A stretch of 64,000 nucleotides of DNA from Verrucomicrobiota bacterium (GTDB lineage Bacteria > Verrucomicrobiota > Verrucomicrobiia > Verrucomicrobiales > V1-33): positions 10,877 through 74,876 of the forward strand of contig QQNF01000004.1 in assembly GCA_003402705.1 (NCBI GenBank), written 5' to 3'. How positions within the stretch are numbered: position 1 is the stretch's first letter; each line of letters opens with the position of its first letter. A model generated the notes under the pieces. The model searched no databases. It was not told the origin of the DNA and saw nothing but the letters and a program-made list of their open reading frames with translations. Of this stretch, positions 30,241 through 64,000 are shown piece after piece. The translations under genes and the position numbers were made by a program.

Positions 30241-31392
30241 TCAAAGCCCGTGATGGAACCTCGGCGTCCGCGGCGTGATCCCCGTGAACAAATGCCACGG
30301 AATCGTCCGCGCCCACCCCGCCAGCTCCCCCGCCGCAATCTCCTCGTCCCCACTCCGCCCCAGCAGCACCACTTCGTCCCCCCGCCGCACCGCATCGCCA
30401 AGCTCCGTCACATCCGCCATCAATTGATCCATCGTCACCCGACCCAGCACCGCGCACCGCTGCCCCCCAATCAGCACCTGCGCCCCGTTCCCCGACGCAT
30501 GCCTCGGATAACCATCCCCATACCCTGCCGTCACCGTCGCCACCCGCGTCGGCCGGCTCGTCACATGCGTCCGCCCGTAACTCACCCCATGCCCCGCCGG
30601 AAGCTCCCGCACCAATCCCACCCGCGCACTCCACCGCATCACCGGCCGCACTAACCGATCAAACTCCGGAATCGGCGACACCCCGTACAGCAGCAGCCCC
30701 GACCGCACCATCTCGCCCGCCGGATGCGCACAAACCCCCAGGCCCGCACTGTTCGCCAGATGCACCCGGAACGCCCCATGCGCCTTCTGCCAACCACTCA
30801 CCGCCGCCCGGAATTCCGCCGCCTGCCGCCGCGTGAACACCTCATCCTCATCCGCCGACGGAAAATGACTGCTCACCGAATCCAGCTCCAGCGAACGCAT
30901 CCCCCGCACCAGCCCGATCAACTCGCCCGCCTCCACCGGCAGCGACCCGATCCGCCCCATCCCCGTGTCCACCACCACATGCACCCGCTGCACCCTCCCC
31001 TGCCCCGCCGCCTCCGCCGCAAACGCCCGCACCTCCTCCGCACTCGAAACCGCCGGGATCCACCCCGCCGCCACAATCCCCGCCACTTCCTCCGGCAGCG
31101 ACGGACTCAACAGATACACCGACCGCCCCGCCCCGCTCGCCGTCCGCGTTACCCGCGAAACCACCGCCGCTTCGTCAGGACACGCCACCGCAAACGCCCC
31201 CACCTCCCCGTCCAGCGCCCGCGCCACCCCTTCAAGCCCATGCCCGTACGCGTCCGCCTTCACCACCGCCATCACCAGCTCCGGCCCGCCCCCCGCCAAC
31301 TGCCCCACCGCCCGCGCATTGTCACGCAACGCCGCAGCATCAATGTCCGCGCGGCATCGCACACCCGAAGATTTCCCTGGTTCATCACTCAC
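30241..31392 (-). CDS. alr: Alanine racemase
   Basis: PLP-lysine motif AVVKADAYGHG, plus ...VDTGMGRIG... and ...SHFPSADE... The track ORF runs to 31467, but its Gly/Arg-rich head looks non-native. GTG at 31390-31392 or 31360-31362 is the more likely start (uncertain). Confidence 0.85.
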   Translation of the reverse strand: MSDEPGKSSGVRCRADIDAAALRDNARAVGQLAGGGPELVMAVVKADAYGHGLEGVARALDGEVGAFAVACPDEAAVVSRVTRTASGAGRSVYLLSPSLPEEVAGIVAAGWIPAVSSAEEVRAFAAEAAGQGRVQRVHVVVDTGMGRIGSLPVEAGELIGLVRGMRSLELDSVSSHFPSADEDEVFTRRQAAEFRAAVSGWQKAHGAFRVHLANSAGLGVCAHPAGEMVRSGLLLYGVSPIPEFDRLVRPVMRWSARVGLVRELPAGHGVSYGRTHVTSRPTRVATVTAGYGDGYPRHASGNGAQVLIGGQRCAVLGRVTMDQLMADVTELGDAVRRGDEVVLLGRSGDEEIAAGELAGWARTIPWHLFTGITPRTPRFHHGL

Positions 31393-31509
31393 AACCCCGC
31401 ACCCTGACACACCGCCGCACCCGCGCAACCGGACCCCTCTTCCCGCCCCGCACCCGCCCCGCCGCAAACGGGCGCTTGTCGCCCCTCCACCCGCTGTCTA
31501 AGAACACCC

Positions 31510-32322
31510 ATGATTCACTTCTGGAAAATGAACGGGGCCGGCAACGACTTCGTCATCCTCGACAACCGGGACGGCCGCCTCTCCCTCAGCGGCGCGCAGA
31601 TCGCCGCCCTGTGCGACCGCCACCGCGGCGTCGGCGCAGACGGTCTCCTCGCCGTCGAACCCGCTCAATCCAGTGCCGACTTCCGCATGCGATACTACAA
31701 CGCCGACGGCGGCGAAGCCGAAATGTGCGGCAACGGTGCCCGCTGCTTCGCCCGCTTCGCCAACTTCCTCAGCAACTGGTCCCTCGACTCCGTCTCCTTC
31801 GAAACCCCCGCAGGCATCATCAGCGCCACCTTCCACGGCGATCAGGTCCGCCTCCGCATGAGCGAACCCCACGACTGGCGCCCAGCCCAGTCCCTCCACG
31901 TCGCCGACACCTCCCTCTCCGTCCATTTCGTCAACACCGGGGTCCCCCACGCCGTCGTCCTCACCGACGATCTCGCTAACGTCCCCGTCCGCTCATGGGG
32001 CGCAGGCCTCCGCTACCACGACGCCTTCTCACCCAAAGGCACCAACGCCAATTTCGCCTCCGTCCTCTCCCAGGACACCATCGCCATCCGCACCTACGAA
32101 CGCGGCGTCGAAGACGAAACCCTCGCCTGCGGCACCGGCATGGTCGCCTCCGCCCTCATCCACGCCTCCCTCTCCGGAGCCCCCTCCCCCGTCAAAGTCC
32201 TCGTCAAAGGCGGCGACACTCTCGAGGTCGGCTTCACCCGCGACGGCGACTCGTTCCGCGATGTCACCCTAACCGGCCCAGCCGTCATCGTCTTCGCAGG
32301 CGATATCGCCACTCCCGCCTGA
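31510..32322 (+). CDS. dapF: Diaminopimelate epimerase
   Basis: MIHFWKMNGAGNDFVILDNRDG...RYYNADGGEAEMCGNGARCFARF...ACGTG. Confidence 0.93.
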   Translation: MIHFWKMNGAGNDFVILDNRDGRLSLSGAQIAALCDRHRGVGADGLLAVEPAQSSADFRMRYYNADGGEAEMCGNGARCFARFANFLSNWSLDSVSFETPAGIISATFHGDQVRLRMSEPHDWRPAQSLHVADTSLSVHFVNTGVPHAVVLTDDLANVPVRSWGAGLRYHDAFSPKGTNANFASVLSQDTIAIRTYERGVEDETLACGTGMVASALIHASLSGAPSPVKVLVKGGDTLEVGFTRDGDSFRDVTLTGPAVIVFAGDIATPA

Positions 32323-32368
32323 TCCCCCACCTCATCCTTCTCCCCTTCCCTCCCCTAACTCTCCCCCC

Positions 32369-63407: not shown

Positions 63408-63414
63408 AAAATTG

Positions 63415-63960
63415 TCAGGGTTTCAGCGGCTCCGCATCGAACCGCACCAGCGATGCCTCCCCGCGCACCACCACCGCCGTCCGGATCGACCGATCCCATG
63501 GCGGCAGAAACCCGCCATCACCGGCACCATCAATCGACCCCGCCTCCTGCGCCACTGGCGACCCGTGATCCGTCCACGGCCCCTCCGGCTTCGGAGCCGT
63601 CGCCACCGCCACCGCCAGCGGCCCGCCCTTCTTCCGCGCCGTGTAAAACAGATAGTACTTCCCCTTCCACTCGCAGATCTCCGGCGCCCAGAAGCTCCCC
63701 GATGCCCACTCCGGCGTCTCCTCAAACACCGATCCCGCCACTTCCCAGTTCACCAGATCCTTCGACAGCAGCACCGGAAAATGCGGGCCCCACTCCGACG
63801 ATGTCGCCGTCGCATAATACAACTCCCCCACCCGGATCACCGACGGATCCGGATAATCCCCGCGCAGCACAGGATTCGCATAACGCAGCTTCGCATCCGC
63901 ACCCGCAACTCCCATCGCCATCGCGACGGCCACTCCCATCAGCATCAGTGTCTTTTTCAT
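63415..63960 (-). CDS. GH43-family glycosidase-like protein, short (181 aa)
   Basis: MKKTLMLMGVAVAMAMGVAGA...YANPVLRGDYPDPSVIRVGELYYATATSS...LLSKDLVNWE...FWAPEICEWKGKYYLFYTA is the first part of a five-bladed propeller. It ends after ~180 aa, whereas GH43 catalytic domains are usually ~300 aa. Confidence 0.7.
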   Translation of the reverse strand: MKKTLMLMGVAVAMAMGVAGADAKLRYANPVLRGDYPDPSVIRVGELYYATATSSEWGPHFPVLLSKDLVNWEVAGSVFEETPEWASGSFWAPEICEWKGKYYLFYTARKKGGPLAVAVATAPKPEGPWTDHGSPVAQEAGSIDGAGDGGFLPPWDRSIRTAVVVRGEASLVRFDAEPLKP

Positions 63961-64000
63961 GGCCGTCGCGGTTCGTTCCTCCCAACCTTCAATACTTCCG

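What the first reader, a model, noticed from the sequence alone, without database searches (positions are those of the whole stretch)
30241..64000. Extreme orientation-independent strand asymmetry at synonymous sites
The + strand genes (dapF, dapA, gmhA, the 58501 gene) use almost only C/A-ending codons, for example GCC, CTC, GAC, GAA, AAA. The minus-strand genes (alr, mcrB, the Cys/His gene, GH43) use almost only G/T-ending codons, for example GCG, GTG, GGG, TTT, GAT. The + strand is therefore C- and A-rich whatever the coding direction. This creates the many Pro/Arg-rich shadow ORFs in the track and gives a practical frame test that I used for start and frameshift calls. Exceptions are rpmB and the 69-aa gene (highly expressed type) and 45.1-48.9 kb. 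Skew this strong points to an unusually powerful replication- or repair-linked mutational bias.
Basis: seen in the sequence. Interest (0 to 1): 0.55.

Follow-up and report, generated by a model that had tools for sequence, protein, structure and literature searches.

The report
Near-total strand-specific G/C codon bias
In this freshwater Verrucomicrobiales chromosome, silent codon positions are about 83% C on one DNA strand (G on the other) whichever way a gene points, roughly twice the strongest strand bias found in a 352-chromosome survey, and recently imported DNA next to it lacks the bias.

Summary
From about 29.55 kb to the window end the + strand is 42.6% C and 21.0% G, a GC skew of -0.34. 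At four-fold degenerate sites of 19 curated native genes the + strand holds C 3820, G 221, A 360 and T 232. The strand-linked component of this skew is 0.89 and the gene-orientation component is -0.015. The highest comparable value in a 352-chromosome survey was 0.43.

The bias is absent from a mobile giant-protein module (1-29.5 kb), which ends beside a tRNA-Pro gene. It is also absent from rpmB and a neighbouring small gene, and only partial across 45-52 kb. A sister lineage carries the same alr-dapF-dapA-rph block with the opposite sign. Unskewed lineages branch next to the skewed ones.

My best reading is an exceptionally strong replication-strand substitution asymmetry, with the G+T-rich - strand as the leading strand. 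The asymmetry affects transversions as well as transitions. No origin or terminus lies in the window, so the link to replication is inferred and the molecular cause is unknown. I class it as a new, extreme variant of a known phenomenon.

The parts
30058..64000 (.). Native chromosomal DNA with the extreme strand bias: the + strand is C/A-rich and the - strand G/T-rich. It carries housekeeping genes: alr, dapF, dapA, rph, asd, recD2, sucD, an RND efflux operon and glycoside hydrolases.
   Evidence: GC skew is -0.34. GC4 skew on the + strand is -0.74 to -0.97 in 19 genes of both orientations. The skew continues at least 4.2 kb beyond the window end in L013.
30058..30134 (-). tRNA-Pro(CGG). Its 3' end marks the boundary between native DNA and imported DNA.
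   Evidence: Found by ARAGORN and Rfam. The 94.7% homology to the sister species L015 starts at window 30053, and L015 carries the same tRNA.
29547..30057 (.). C-rich spacer containing a 59-aa ORF (29587-29766, - strand). It is skewed, but has no counterpart in L015.
   Evidence: GC skew across 29547-30240, a segment that also includes the tRNA-Pro gene and the sequence up to alr, is -0.32; 400-bp windows are; sequence is; there is no blastn match to L015. Its status is unresolved.
1..27579 (-). Horizontally mobile module of giant proteins (2822 and 2928 aa) and tail-fibre-like proteins. All genes lie on the - strand and it has no strand bias.
   Evidence: GC4 skew on the + strand is +0.02 to +0.32. 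Window 13964-27198 is 92.8% identical to L131, where the module lies in a different neighbourhood flanked by genes that lack the extreme skew. It is only 83-84% identical to the copy in the sister species. A homologous module is also unskewed in the skewed RLZZ179 lineage.
27646..29546 (-). LytTR response regulator and His_kinase pair. It is unskewed. It travels with the module in another lineage and is absent from L015.
   Evidence: Pfam. GC4 skew on the + strand is -0.17 and -0.04. The same gene order is seen in L133. The pair is missing from L015.
35668..36182 (-). rpmB (ribosomal protein L28) and an adjacent 69-aa gene. These are native genes that lack the bias.
   Evidence: Four-fold sites are C15 G14 T10 A8 and C11 G10 T10 A3. 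GC skew over 35606-36260 is -0.05.
45059..52354 (.). Block with only partial bias: a 249-aa ORF, a Tgt-methyltransferase fusion, McrBC, a 322-aa ORF and a 160-aa ORF.
   Evidence: GC4 skew on the + strand is -0.21, -0.41, -0.65, -0.79 and -0.53. GC3 skew in 120-codon windows runs from -0.06 to -0.62. Pfam.
30241..31467 (-). alr, an example of a gene on the G-rich strand.
   Evidence: Four-fold sites are G .87 and C .04. Pfam.
31510..34078 (+). dapF, dapA and rph, examples of genes on the C-rich strand. The same block has the opposite skew in L010.
   Evidence: Four-fold C is .86-.88 here. In L010 the same genes are G .58-.73.
52410..57873 (-). AcrB / HlyD-type / outer-membrane efflux operon on the G-rich strand.
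   Evidence: Four-fold G is .82-.85. Pfam.
58405..60837 (+). TPR plus AhpC/TSA protein on the C-rich strand.
   Evidence: Four-fold C is .79 and GC4 skew is -0.87. Pfam.
43280..43354 (+). tRNA-Lys(CTT) inside the native region.

Best explanation
The resident chromosome of this freshwater Verrucomicrobiales lineage evolves under a strand-specific substitution bias. The bias is strong enough that silent sites are almost fixed for G on one strand (the window's - strand) and C on the other.

Shown. DNA acquires the bias according to the strand it lies on, not the direction in which it is read. Imported DNA lacks it, some DNA shows it only partially, and a syntenic block in the sister lineage carries the opposite sign.

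Inferred. This is the leading/lagging-strand asymmetry of chromosome replication. The G+T-rich - strand would be the leading strand, that is, the strand left single-stranded as the lagging-strand template.

Inferred from composition and substitution counts. On the G-rich strand, G is the only long-lived state at silent sites: turnover is about 0.05 per site for G against 0.30-0.36 for C, T and A. Transition equilibria differ 10-16-fold between the strands. If the composition is stationary, transversion rates must be strand-asymmetric too. Classical C-to-T deamination alone therefore does not account for the pattern.

Speculative. Cytosine may be lost from the exposed strand in all three directions, for example by deamination or abasic-site bypass, or because a base-excision or proofreading function is missing or altered. 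Depletion is strongest after a 5' T or C.
For: - The strand component of GC4 skew is 0.89 and the orientation component is -0.015. Codon tables flip with strand.
- G excess and T excess lie on the same strand, and the effect is strongest at silent sites. The strand component is 0.08 at codon position 1, 0.11 at position 2 and 0.72 at position 3. This is the signature of replication skew (PMC2099444).
- About 67% of native coding bases lie on the G-rich strand (my count). The imported module is co-oriented with the G-rich strand both here and in L133.
- The alr-dapF-dapA-rph block has GC4 skew of about -0.9 here and +0.5 to +0.7 in L010, with the same gene order. Orthologues on opposite strands differ in amino acids as expected: the copies on the G-rich strand gain V +32, G +29, E +20 and R +15, and lose I -24, S -22 and P -14.
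- The mobile module is unskewed in two independently skewed lineages. The 45-52 kb block is intermediate.
- At two-fold sites, C/(C+T) is .89 in + strand genes and .44 in - strand genes, while G/(A+G) is .35 and .88.
- Across 2211 four-fold sites compared with relatives about 90-95% identical there are 222 differences. On the + strand the pairs are AC 95, CT 48, CG 36, AG 19, AT 15 and GT 9. A model with strand-symmetric transversions gives a pyrimidine-to-purine flow of 23 against a purine-to-pyrimidine flow of 131, which is incompatible with a stationary composition (my arithmetic).
- Residual C/(C+G) on the G-rich strand is .017 after T.03-.04 after C.06 after A and .10-.12 after G. The order is the same in both gene orientations.
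Against: - No origin or terminus lies in the window, so no symmetric sign switch was seen. The only switch, at 29.5 kb, is the edge of an insertion.
- Calling the G-rich strand the leading strand rests on the general G>C rule and a modest gene-orientation bias. That bias is only 53% in L010.
- Non-annotated DNA has a GC skew of only -0.31 and no AT skew. The ratio to four-fold sites, about 0.35, is lower than the usual 0.68 (PMC2099444). Constraint, or a selective or fixation component at silent sites, may therefore contribute.
- rpmB escapes the bias entirely, so other forces can override it.
- Changes polarised in the imported module show no excess loss of C.048 per site from C against .043 from G. 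Recent arrival would explain this, but it means the mutational direction was never observed directly.
- The within-species SNPs that could be polarised are too few to use (37).
- The rate estimates assume a stationary composition.
Confidence: 0.7

Rival explanations
1. A fixation bias rather than a mutational bias. Selection, or a repair or conversion bias, favours G on one strand at every weakly constrained site, for example for a polar or structural property of the chromosome.
For: - Four-fold sites are far more skewed (-0.89) than non-annotated DNA (-0.31).
- All three kinds of change towards the favoured base appear elevated, and all three away from it depressed. This is partly forced by assuming reversibility.
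- rpmB escapes the bias.
- The imported module stays unskewed in three skewed lineages.
Against: - No known selective agent acts on about 83% of silent sites regardless of reading direction.
- Amino-acid composition is dragged in the same direction, which looks like pressure rather than benefit.
- Intergenic skew is normally weaker than four-fold skew in ordinary genomes too (PMC2099444).
- The module's lack of skew is explained by its 92.8% identity to a copy whose flanking genes lack the extreme skew.
Confidence: 0.12
2. The asymmetry comes from an unusual replication mode, not ordinary leading/lagging synthesis. Candidates are long-lived single-stranded DNA as in vertebrate mitochondrial strand-displacement replication, or largely unidirectional replication.
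For: - The transition asymmetry, with equilibrium odds differing 10-16-fold, is of the order I recall for vertebrate mtDNA (my knowledge, not checked here).
- The strand that is G+T-rich matches the exposed mitochondrial H strand.
- The skew is uninterrupted across at least 38 kb.
Against: - Mitochondrial asymmetry is carried by transitions and keeps purines near 50%. Here the + strand is 87% pyrimidine at four-fold sites, so transversions are involved.
- Both signs occur in sister lineages, as expected for a two-armed chromosome with inversions.
- There is no direct evidence on the replication mode.
Confidence: 0.1
3. The change of skew at about 29.5 kb is the replication origin or terminus.
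For: The sign of GC skew changes there, from +0.05 to -0.34.
Against: - The left side is not a mirror image: its GC4 skew is +0.02 to +0.32, against -0.9 on the right.
- The left side is a mobile module, 92.8% identical to a copy in another genomic context.
- The boundary coincides with the 3' end of a tRNA-Pro gene and with the loss of homology to the sister species.
Confidence: 0.03
4. Ordinary codon-usage preference (translational selection or C-ending preference) combined with gene clustering on one strand.
For: Some relatives (L080, L087, L092) do show a strong C-ending preference that follows gene orientation.
Against: In the window the orientation-linked component is -0.015 and the strand-linked component is 0.89. 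Genes of both orientations are interleaved.
Confidence: 0.01
5. Assembly chimera or sequencing artefact.
For: There is a sharp compositional break inside one contig.
Against: - The junction and both sides recur in independent assemblies from different samples and pipelines.
- Reading frames are intact and match Pfam families end to end.
- Related lineages show the same phenomenon.
Confidence: 0.01

Closest known systems
Replication-associated strand compositional asymmetry with strand-specific codon usage. Examples: Borrelia burgdorferi, Ca. Blochmannia floridanus, Clostridium acetobutylicum, Ehrlichia. Sources: Morton & Morton 2007 (PMC2099444), which lists McInerney 1998 in its references.
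   Same: Codon choice is set by the strand, not by gene orientation. One strand is rich in G and T. The effect is strongest at four-fold sites and also shifts amino-acid composition.
   Different: - Magnitude: 0.89 here, against 0.43 for the strongest of 352 chromosomes and 0.23 for B. burgdorferi.
- The known extreme cases are low-GC, small-genome or host-restricted bacteria or Firmicutes, and bias correlates negatively with GC content and genome size (PMC4613354). This organism has about 63% GC and comes from lake and pond metagenomes.
- The bias here is almost entirely G against C, and it needs asymmetric transversions.
Heavy/light-strand asymmetry of vertebrate mitochondrial DNA (my knowledge; related papers PMC3269012 and PMC10730292 were listed in a search but not read).
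   Same: Near-saturating skew at four-fold sites. Transition asymmetry of ten-fold or more. G and T are enriched on the strand thought to spend time single-stranded.
   Different: In mtDNA the asymmetry is attributed to C-to-T and A-to-G deamination and keeps the purine/pyrimidine balance roughly even. Here purines are only 13% of four-fold sites on the + strand. This is a bacterial chromosome, and both signs occur in sister lineages.
Amelioration of horizontally acquired DNA, and compositional detection of genomic islands at tRNA genes (Lawrence & Ochman concept, my knowledge).
   Same: Imported DNA stands out by composition. It ends at the 3' end of a tRNA gene and is flanked by a transposase in a related lineage (L133). 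A second block shows intermediate values.
   Different: The discriminating signal is strand skew, not GC content or codon adaptation. No directional change could yet be measured in the imported module.
Replication-strand-biased cytosine loss by single-strand DNA deaminases (APOBEC-type signatures at the fork; my knowledge).
   Same: Cytosine appears depleted on the putative lagging-strand template in all three directions. Depletion is strongest after a 5' T or C.
   Different: No deaminase was identified. The context effect spans only about six-fold and could have other causes. This is a lead, not a membership claim.

Membership tests
Replication-associated GC/AT skew | Composition depends on the DNA strand, not on the direction of the gene | tested here: met
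   The strand component is 0.89 and the orientation component is -0.015, with 19 of 19 genes agreeing.
Replication-associated GC/AT skew | G>C and T>A on the same strand | tested here: met
   On the - strand, four-fold sites are G .78, T .08-.10, C .07-.09 and A .06. TA4 skew is +0.19 on the G-rich strand.
Replication-associated GC/AT skew | Strongest at least-constrained sites (four-fold > intergenic > codon positions 1 and 2) | tested here: met
   Values are 0.89 at four-fold sites, 0.31 in non-annotated DNA, and 0.08 and 0.11 at codon positions 1 and 2.
Replication-associated GC/AT skew | Sign switches symmetrically at the origin and the terminus | not testable with these tools
   No ori or ter lies in the window. 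The only switch is an insertion boundary. Whole-genome sequence of the MAG could not be fetched.
Replication-associated GC/AT skew | Most genes, especially highly expressed ones, lie on the G-rich (leading) strand | tested here: inconclusive
   About 67% of native coding bases, and rpmB, lie on the G-rich strand here. In L010 the figure is only 53% (my counts).
Replication-associated GC/AT skew | Inverted or translocated segments take on the skew of their new strand | tested here: met
   The syntenic alr-dapF-dapA-rph block has the opposite sign in L010.
Horizontally acquired genomic island (left 29.5 kb) | Atypical composition relative to the host | tested here: met
   GC4 skew is +0.02 to +0.32, against -0.9 in native DNA.
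Horizontally acquired genomic island (left 29.5 kb) | Closer to copies in unrelated contexts or hosts than host phylogeny predicts | tested here: met
   The module is 92.8% identical to L131, where its flanking genes lack the extreme skew and the neighbourhood is different, but only 83-84% identical to the sister-species copy whose native DNA is 94.7% identical. The giant protein is 75% identical to its Luteolibacter homologue, while DapA is about 58-60%.
Horizontally acquired genomic island (left 29.5 kb) | Boundary at a tRNA gene or mobility genes | tested here: inconclusive
   The 3' end of tRNA-Pro lies at the boundary, and an IS3-type transposase flanks the module in L133. No integrase lies in the window, I did not search for att repeats, and the far end is outside the window.
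Prophage | Head, packaging, integrase or lysis genes, or relatives among viral contigs | tested here: not met
   Only tail-fibre-like and repeat domains were found. No relatives were found in IMG/VR.
Translational codon-usage bias | Preferred codons are the same in genes of both orientations | tested here: not met
   Preferred codons flip with strand for every four-fold family and for Glu, Lys, Asp, Phe, Asn, His, Tyr and Ile. Only Gln keeps CAG on both strands.

The most novel reading that the evidence does not exclude
These Verrucomicrobiales lineages may run a qualitatively different replication or repair regime. Candidates are prolonged single-strand exposure of one template, a fork-associated base-modifying activity, or loss of a base-excision or proofreading function. 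Such a regime would make cytosine on one strand as short-lived as A or T. It would have arisen (or been lost) several times among close relatives. It can be pinned down by comparing skewed lineages with their unskewed sisters.
Probability: 0.3. Interest if true: 0.85.

Novelty: new variant of a known kind. Interest (0 to 1): 0.68.

Why it matters
What causes bacterial GC skew, and how mutation and selection share in it, has been argued since the 1990s using effects of a few percent. Here the effect is close to saturation, in a high-GC organism that appears free-living. Closely related lineages have no skew, moderate skew or the opposite sign.

That makes this a natural experiment. Comparing gene content of skewed and unskewed sisters, strand-resolved rare-variant spectra from existing lake metagenomes, and coverage-based maps of replication direction could identify the responsible factor.

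There are practical consequences too. The bias gives a very sharp marker for imported or inverted DNA. It creates long spurious ORFs that will mislead gene callers. It also distorts protein sequences, and therefore phylogenies, according to the strand a gene lies on.

Tried and rejected
1. Amelioration of the left module. I first read the high four-fold divergence between the window's module and the L015 copy (0.275, against 0.10 in native DNA), and its rough match to rates derived from native DNA, as a vertically inherited island being ameliorated. Polarising with L131 overturned this. The window's module is closer to L131 (92.8%) than to L015. Losses from C and from G are equal, at .048 and .043 per site. 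The module is recent or repeatedly exchanged, and no directional change is visible.

2. Prophage. PHROG tail-fibre hits exist. However, two IMG/VR scans found nothing and no head, packaging or integrase genes were seen.

3. Origin or terminus at 29.5 kb. Rejected; see the rival explanations.

4. C-to-T deamination alone with symmetric transversions. Rejected by the stationarity arithmetic.

5. L080, L087 and L092 as further extreme-skew lineages. Rejected, because their C3 preference follows gene orientation.

6. Extending the contig to the left. The giant protein is not on record as an exact sequence.

7. Metagenome scan with RecD2. It returned only two contigs from close relatives (L100 and L113, about 90-95% identical), so the within-species polarised SNP set stayed at 37, too few to interpret.

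8. Literature searches. I found no report of extreme skew in Verrucomicrobia. The library held here is incomplete.

9. Repair and replication gene inventory.
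Full report
THE OBSERVATION

The window splits into two compositional regimes at about 29.5 kb. Positions 1-29500 have a GC skew of +0.048. Positions 29501-64000 are A .195, C .426, G .210 and T .168 on the + strand. That is a GC skew of -0.34, with 2-kb windows reaching -0.445.

The genes in the right part are real. Pfam matches them end to end as alr, dapF, dapA, RNase PH, asd, RecD2, a T2SS F-type protein, a HisA-like protein, a planctomycete-type cytochrome, a Sir2 protein, PAPS reductase, a SIS protein, SucD, a Tgt fusion, McrBC, an AcrB/HlyD/OEP efflux operon, a TPR-AhpC protein and glycoside hydrolases.

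At four-fold degenerate sites, most - strand genes are 75-87% G and + strand genes are 78-88% C. For 19 curated native genes, the mean GC4 skew on the coding strand is -0.907 for + genes and +0.877 for - genes. The strand-linked component is therefore 0.89 and the orientation-linked component is -0.015. Pooled on the + strand, four-fold sites are C 3820, G 221, A 360 and T 232.

Two-fold sites follow the same pattern. C/(C+T) is .89 in + genes and .44 in - genes. G/(A+G) is .35 in + genes and .88 in - genes.

HOW UNUSUAL IT IS

Morton & Morton (PMC2099444, Table 6) measured the replication-dependent G/C skew at four-fold sites in 352 chromosomes. The maximum was 0.433 (Ca. Blochmannia floridanus), and B. 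burgdorferi was 0.229.

SkewDB describes the usual whole-DNA effect as about 2.5% (PMC8941118). Here C minus G is 21.6% of all nucleotides.

A survey of 1111 genomes found that strand bias correlates negatively with GC content and genome size, and that the previously reported extreme cases all have genomes under 2 Mb (PMC4613354). This organism has about 63% GC and comes from lake and pond metagenomes.

The median strand component of GC4 skew is 0.086, the 90th percentile is 0.285 and the maximum is 0.52. The window scores 0.79 by the same automatic procedure.

I found no paper reporting such a skew in Verrucomicrobia. The library held here is incomplete.

IT IS NOT AN ARTEFACT

Contigs with identical or 99% identical sequence occur in independent JGI, ENA and Logan assemblies. 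This holds for the native side, for the left side, and for the junction itself in a 16.9-kb JGI contig.

WHAT THE LEFT 29.5 KB IS

All of its genes lie on the - strand. They encode two giant proteins (2822 and 2928 aa), a tail-fibre-like protein with a Peptidase_S74 domain, several proteins without Pfam matches, and a LytTR/His_kinase pair. Their four-fold sites are ordinary, at C .46 and G .35.

A tRNA-Pro(CGG) gene lies at 30058-30134 on the - strand. The GTDB representative closest to the window is L015, whose DapA is 98% identical. It is 94.7% identical to the window from position 30053 rightwards and carries the same tRNA. To the left it is only 83-84% identical, and it lacks the two-component genes.

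The same module occurs in a 222-kb JGI contig (L131) at 92.8% identity over 13.3 kb. There it sits in a different neighbourhood, and the genes that flank it lack the extreme skew. In the strongly skewed RLZZ179 lineage a homologous module with the same gene order is again unskewed. It lies next to an IS3-type transposase and a skewed native gene.

Homologues of the giant protein are 75% identical in Luteolibacter yonseiensis, whereas DapA is only about 58-60% identical to Luteolibacter.

The left part is therefore a horizontally mobile module. The change of skew at 29.5 kb is an insertion boundary, not an origin or terminus. I could not show that the module is a prophage: two IMG/VR scans found no relatives.

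GRADED EXCEPTIONS INSIDE THE NATIVE PART

The block from about 45.1 to 52.3 kb holds a 249-aa ORF, the Tgt-methyltransferase fusion, McrBC and a 322-aa ORF. Its GC4 skew is intermediate, from -0.21 to -0.79. This fits DNA that was imported or inverted less recently than the module, although I could not test that.

rpmB and the neighbouring 69-aa gene have no skew at all.

RELATIVES

In a DapA tree, the window and L015 group with L016 and L010. All four are skewed, but L016 and L010 have the opposite sign, with whole-DNA skews of +0.19 and +0.27. In L010 the GC4 skew is +0.3 to +0.84 in genes of both orientations. This holds although alr-dapF-dapA-rph keeps the same order and relative orientation.

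The next branch (L017-L021, including a 1.48-Mb contig) shows no such skew: whole-DNA skew is below 0.03 in absolute value, and per-gene GC4 skew in the one member examined, L009, mostly lies within +/-0.3 and does not follow the strand. Two further lineages, L022 and L035, show strand-linked skew of 0.4-0.8 while their neighbours in the tree do not. On this single-gene tree the trait is patchy, which suggests repeated gain or loss.

Three other relatives (L080, L087, L092) have a C-ending preference that follows gene orientation. They serve as a negative control.

Orthologues lying on opposite strands differ in protein sequence in the expected direction. The copies on the G-rich strand gain Val, Gly, Glu and Arg and lose Ile, Ser and Pro.

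MECHANISM: WHAT IS SHOWN

The bias is a property that resident DNA acquires according to its strand.

MECHANISM: WHAT IS INFERRED

I infer that the relevant distinction is leading against lagging strand, with the G+T-rich - strand as the leading strand. The grounds are as follows:
- the general G>C and T>A rule;
- the strength order of four-fold sites, then non-annotated DNA, then codon positions 1 and 2;
- about 67% of native coding bases lying on the G-rich strand;
- the imported module being co-oriented with the G-rich strand in two lineages.

MECHANISM: QUANTITATIVE INFERENCES

I compared the window with relatives about 90-95% identical (L015, L100, L113) at 2211 four-fold sites and found 222 differences. 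On the + strand the pairs are A/C 95, C/T 48, C/G 36, A/G 19, A/T 15 and G/T 9.

If the composition is stationary, per-site turnover on the G-rich strand is about 0.05 for G and 0.30-0.36 for C, T and A. A model in which only transitions are strand-asymmetric fails. It gives a purine-to-pyrimidine flow about 5.6 times the reverse flow. Transversions must therefore be asymmetric as well (my arithmetic). This separates the case from vertebrate mtDNA, where transitions suffice.

The high share of C/G changes is not specific to the skew, because it also appears in the unskewed module. It probably reflects the strong preference for G or C at silent sites.

Residual C on the G-rich strand depends on the 5' neighbour. 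C/(C+G) is .017 after T.03-.04 after C.06 after A and .10-.12 after G, and the order is the same in both gene orientations. This is a lead towards context-dependent loss of cytosine from single-stranded DNA. It is no more than a lead.

WEAKNESSES

- I never saw a symmetric sign switch.
- I could not inventory replication and repair genes.
- Non-annotated DNA is much less skewed (-0.31, with no AT skew) than four-fold sites.
- rpmB escapes the bias.
- The one test that could have shown the direction of change, polarised substitutions in the imported module, came out symmetric. It also forced me to withdraw an earlier reading.
- A fixation bias therefore remains a live rival.

VERDICT

This is a real and very large strand asymmetry. 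It is best explained as an extreme form of replication-associated skew, and it is sharply interrupted by imported DNA. I class it as a new variant of a known kind. Its main value is as a tractable natural experiment on the cause of GC skew.

Noticed in passing
window 1-29546; L131 7516-20750; L133 3937-22595: A conserved multi-gene module appears to move horizontally among Verrucomicrobiota. It holds a LytTR/His_kinase pair, three proteins without Pfam matches, a giant protein of about 2600-2930 aa, and tail-fibre-like proteins with a Peptidase_S74 domain. It stays unskewed in three skewed hosts. Its function is unknown, and it has no relatives in IMG/VR.
   Followed up: partly
window 1-319 and 464-13868 compared with 13969-27579: Window 1-319 is 87-90% identical to the start of the g386-like gene in L131 and L132. 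The C-terminal end of giant1 resembles that of giant2's homologue (71%). Two copies or variants of the module therefore seem to lie in tandem.
   Followed up: no
window 46540-48738 (+): A full-length queuine tRNA-ribosyltransferase (Tgt, 465 bits) is fused to a Methyltransf_30 (MnmC-type) domain, giving 732 aa. Its strand skew is much weaker than that of its neighbours.
   Followed up: no
window 49132-51755 (-): McrC and McrB (AAA_5) restriction genes plus a 322-aa ORF without Pfam matches show intermediate skew. This suggests a defence islet acquired earlier than the giant-protein module.
   Followed up: partly
window, native genes: Gln is the one two-fold amino acid whose codon choice does not flip with strand. 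CAG is 68/80 in + genes and 120/130 in - genes. By contrast, Glu and Lys switch between A-ending and G-ending codons.
   Followed up: no
window 35668-36182 (-): rpmB and an adjacent conserved 69-aa gene have balanced four-fold composition and lower GC inside otherwise saturated DNA.
   Followed up: partly
L010 7730-10882 compared with its flanks: In the opposite-sign sister lineage, the alr-dapF-dapA block has weaker GC4 skew (+0.5 to +0.6) than the flanking genes (+0.7 to +0.84). This could be the trace of a relatively recent inversion still re-equilibrating.
   Followed up: no
window 24746-26440 (+), 34151-35533 (+), 32432-33403 (-) and many others: Very long ORFs lie antisense to real genes (up to 564 aa). 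They arise from the GC-rich, skewed third positions. Their GC1>GC3 pattern and Pro/Arg/Gly/Ala richness mark them as shadow ORFs, and they could mislead gene callers.
   Followed up: partly
L080, L087, L092 (Akkermansiaceae, Haloferula): Four-fold sites are strongly C-ending, and the preference follows gene orientation rather than strand. This gives whole-DNA skews of -0.15 to -0.20 where genes cluster on one strand.
   Followed up: partly
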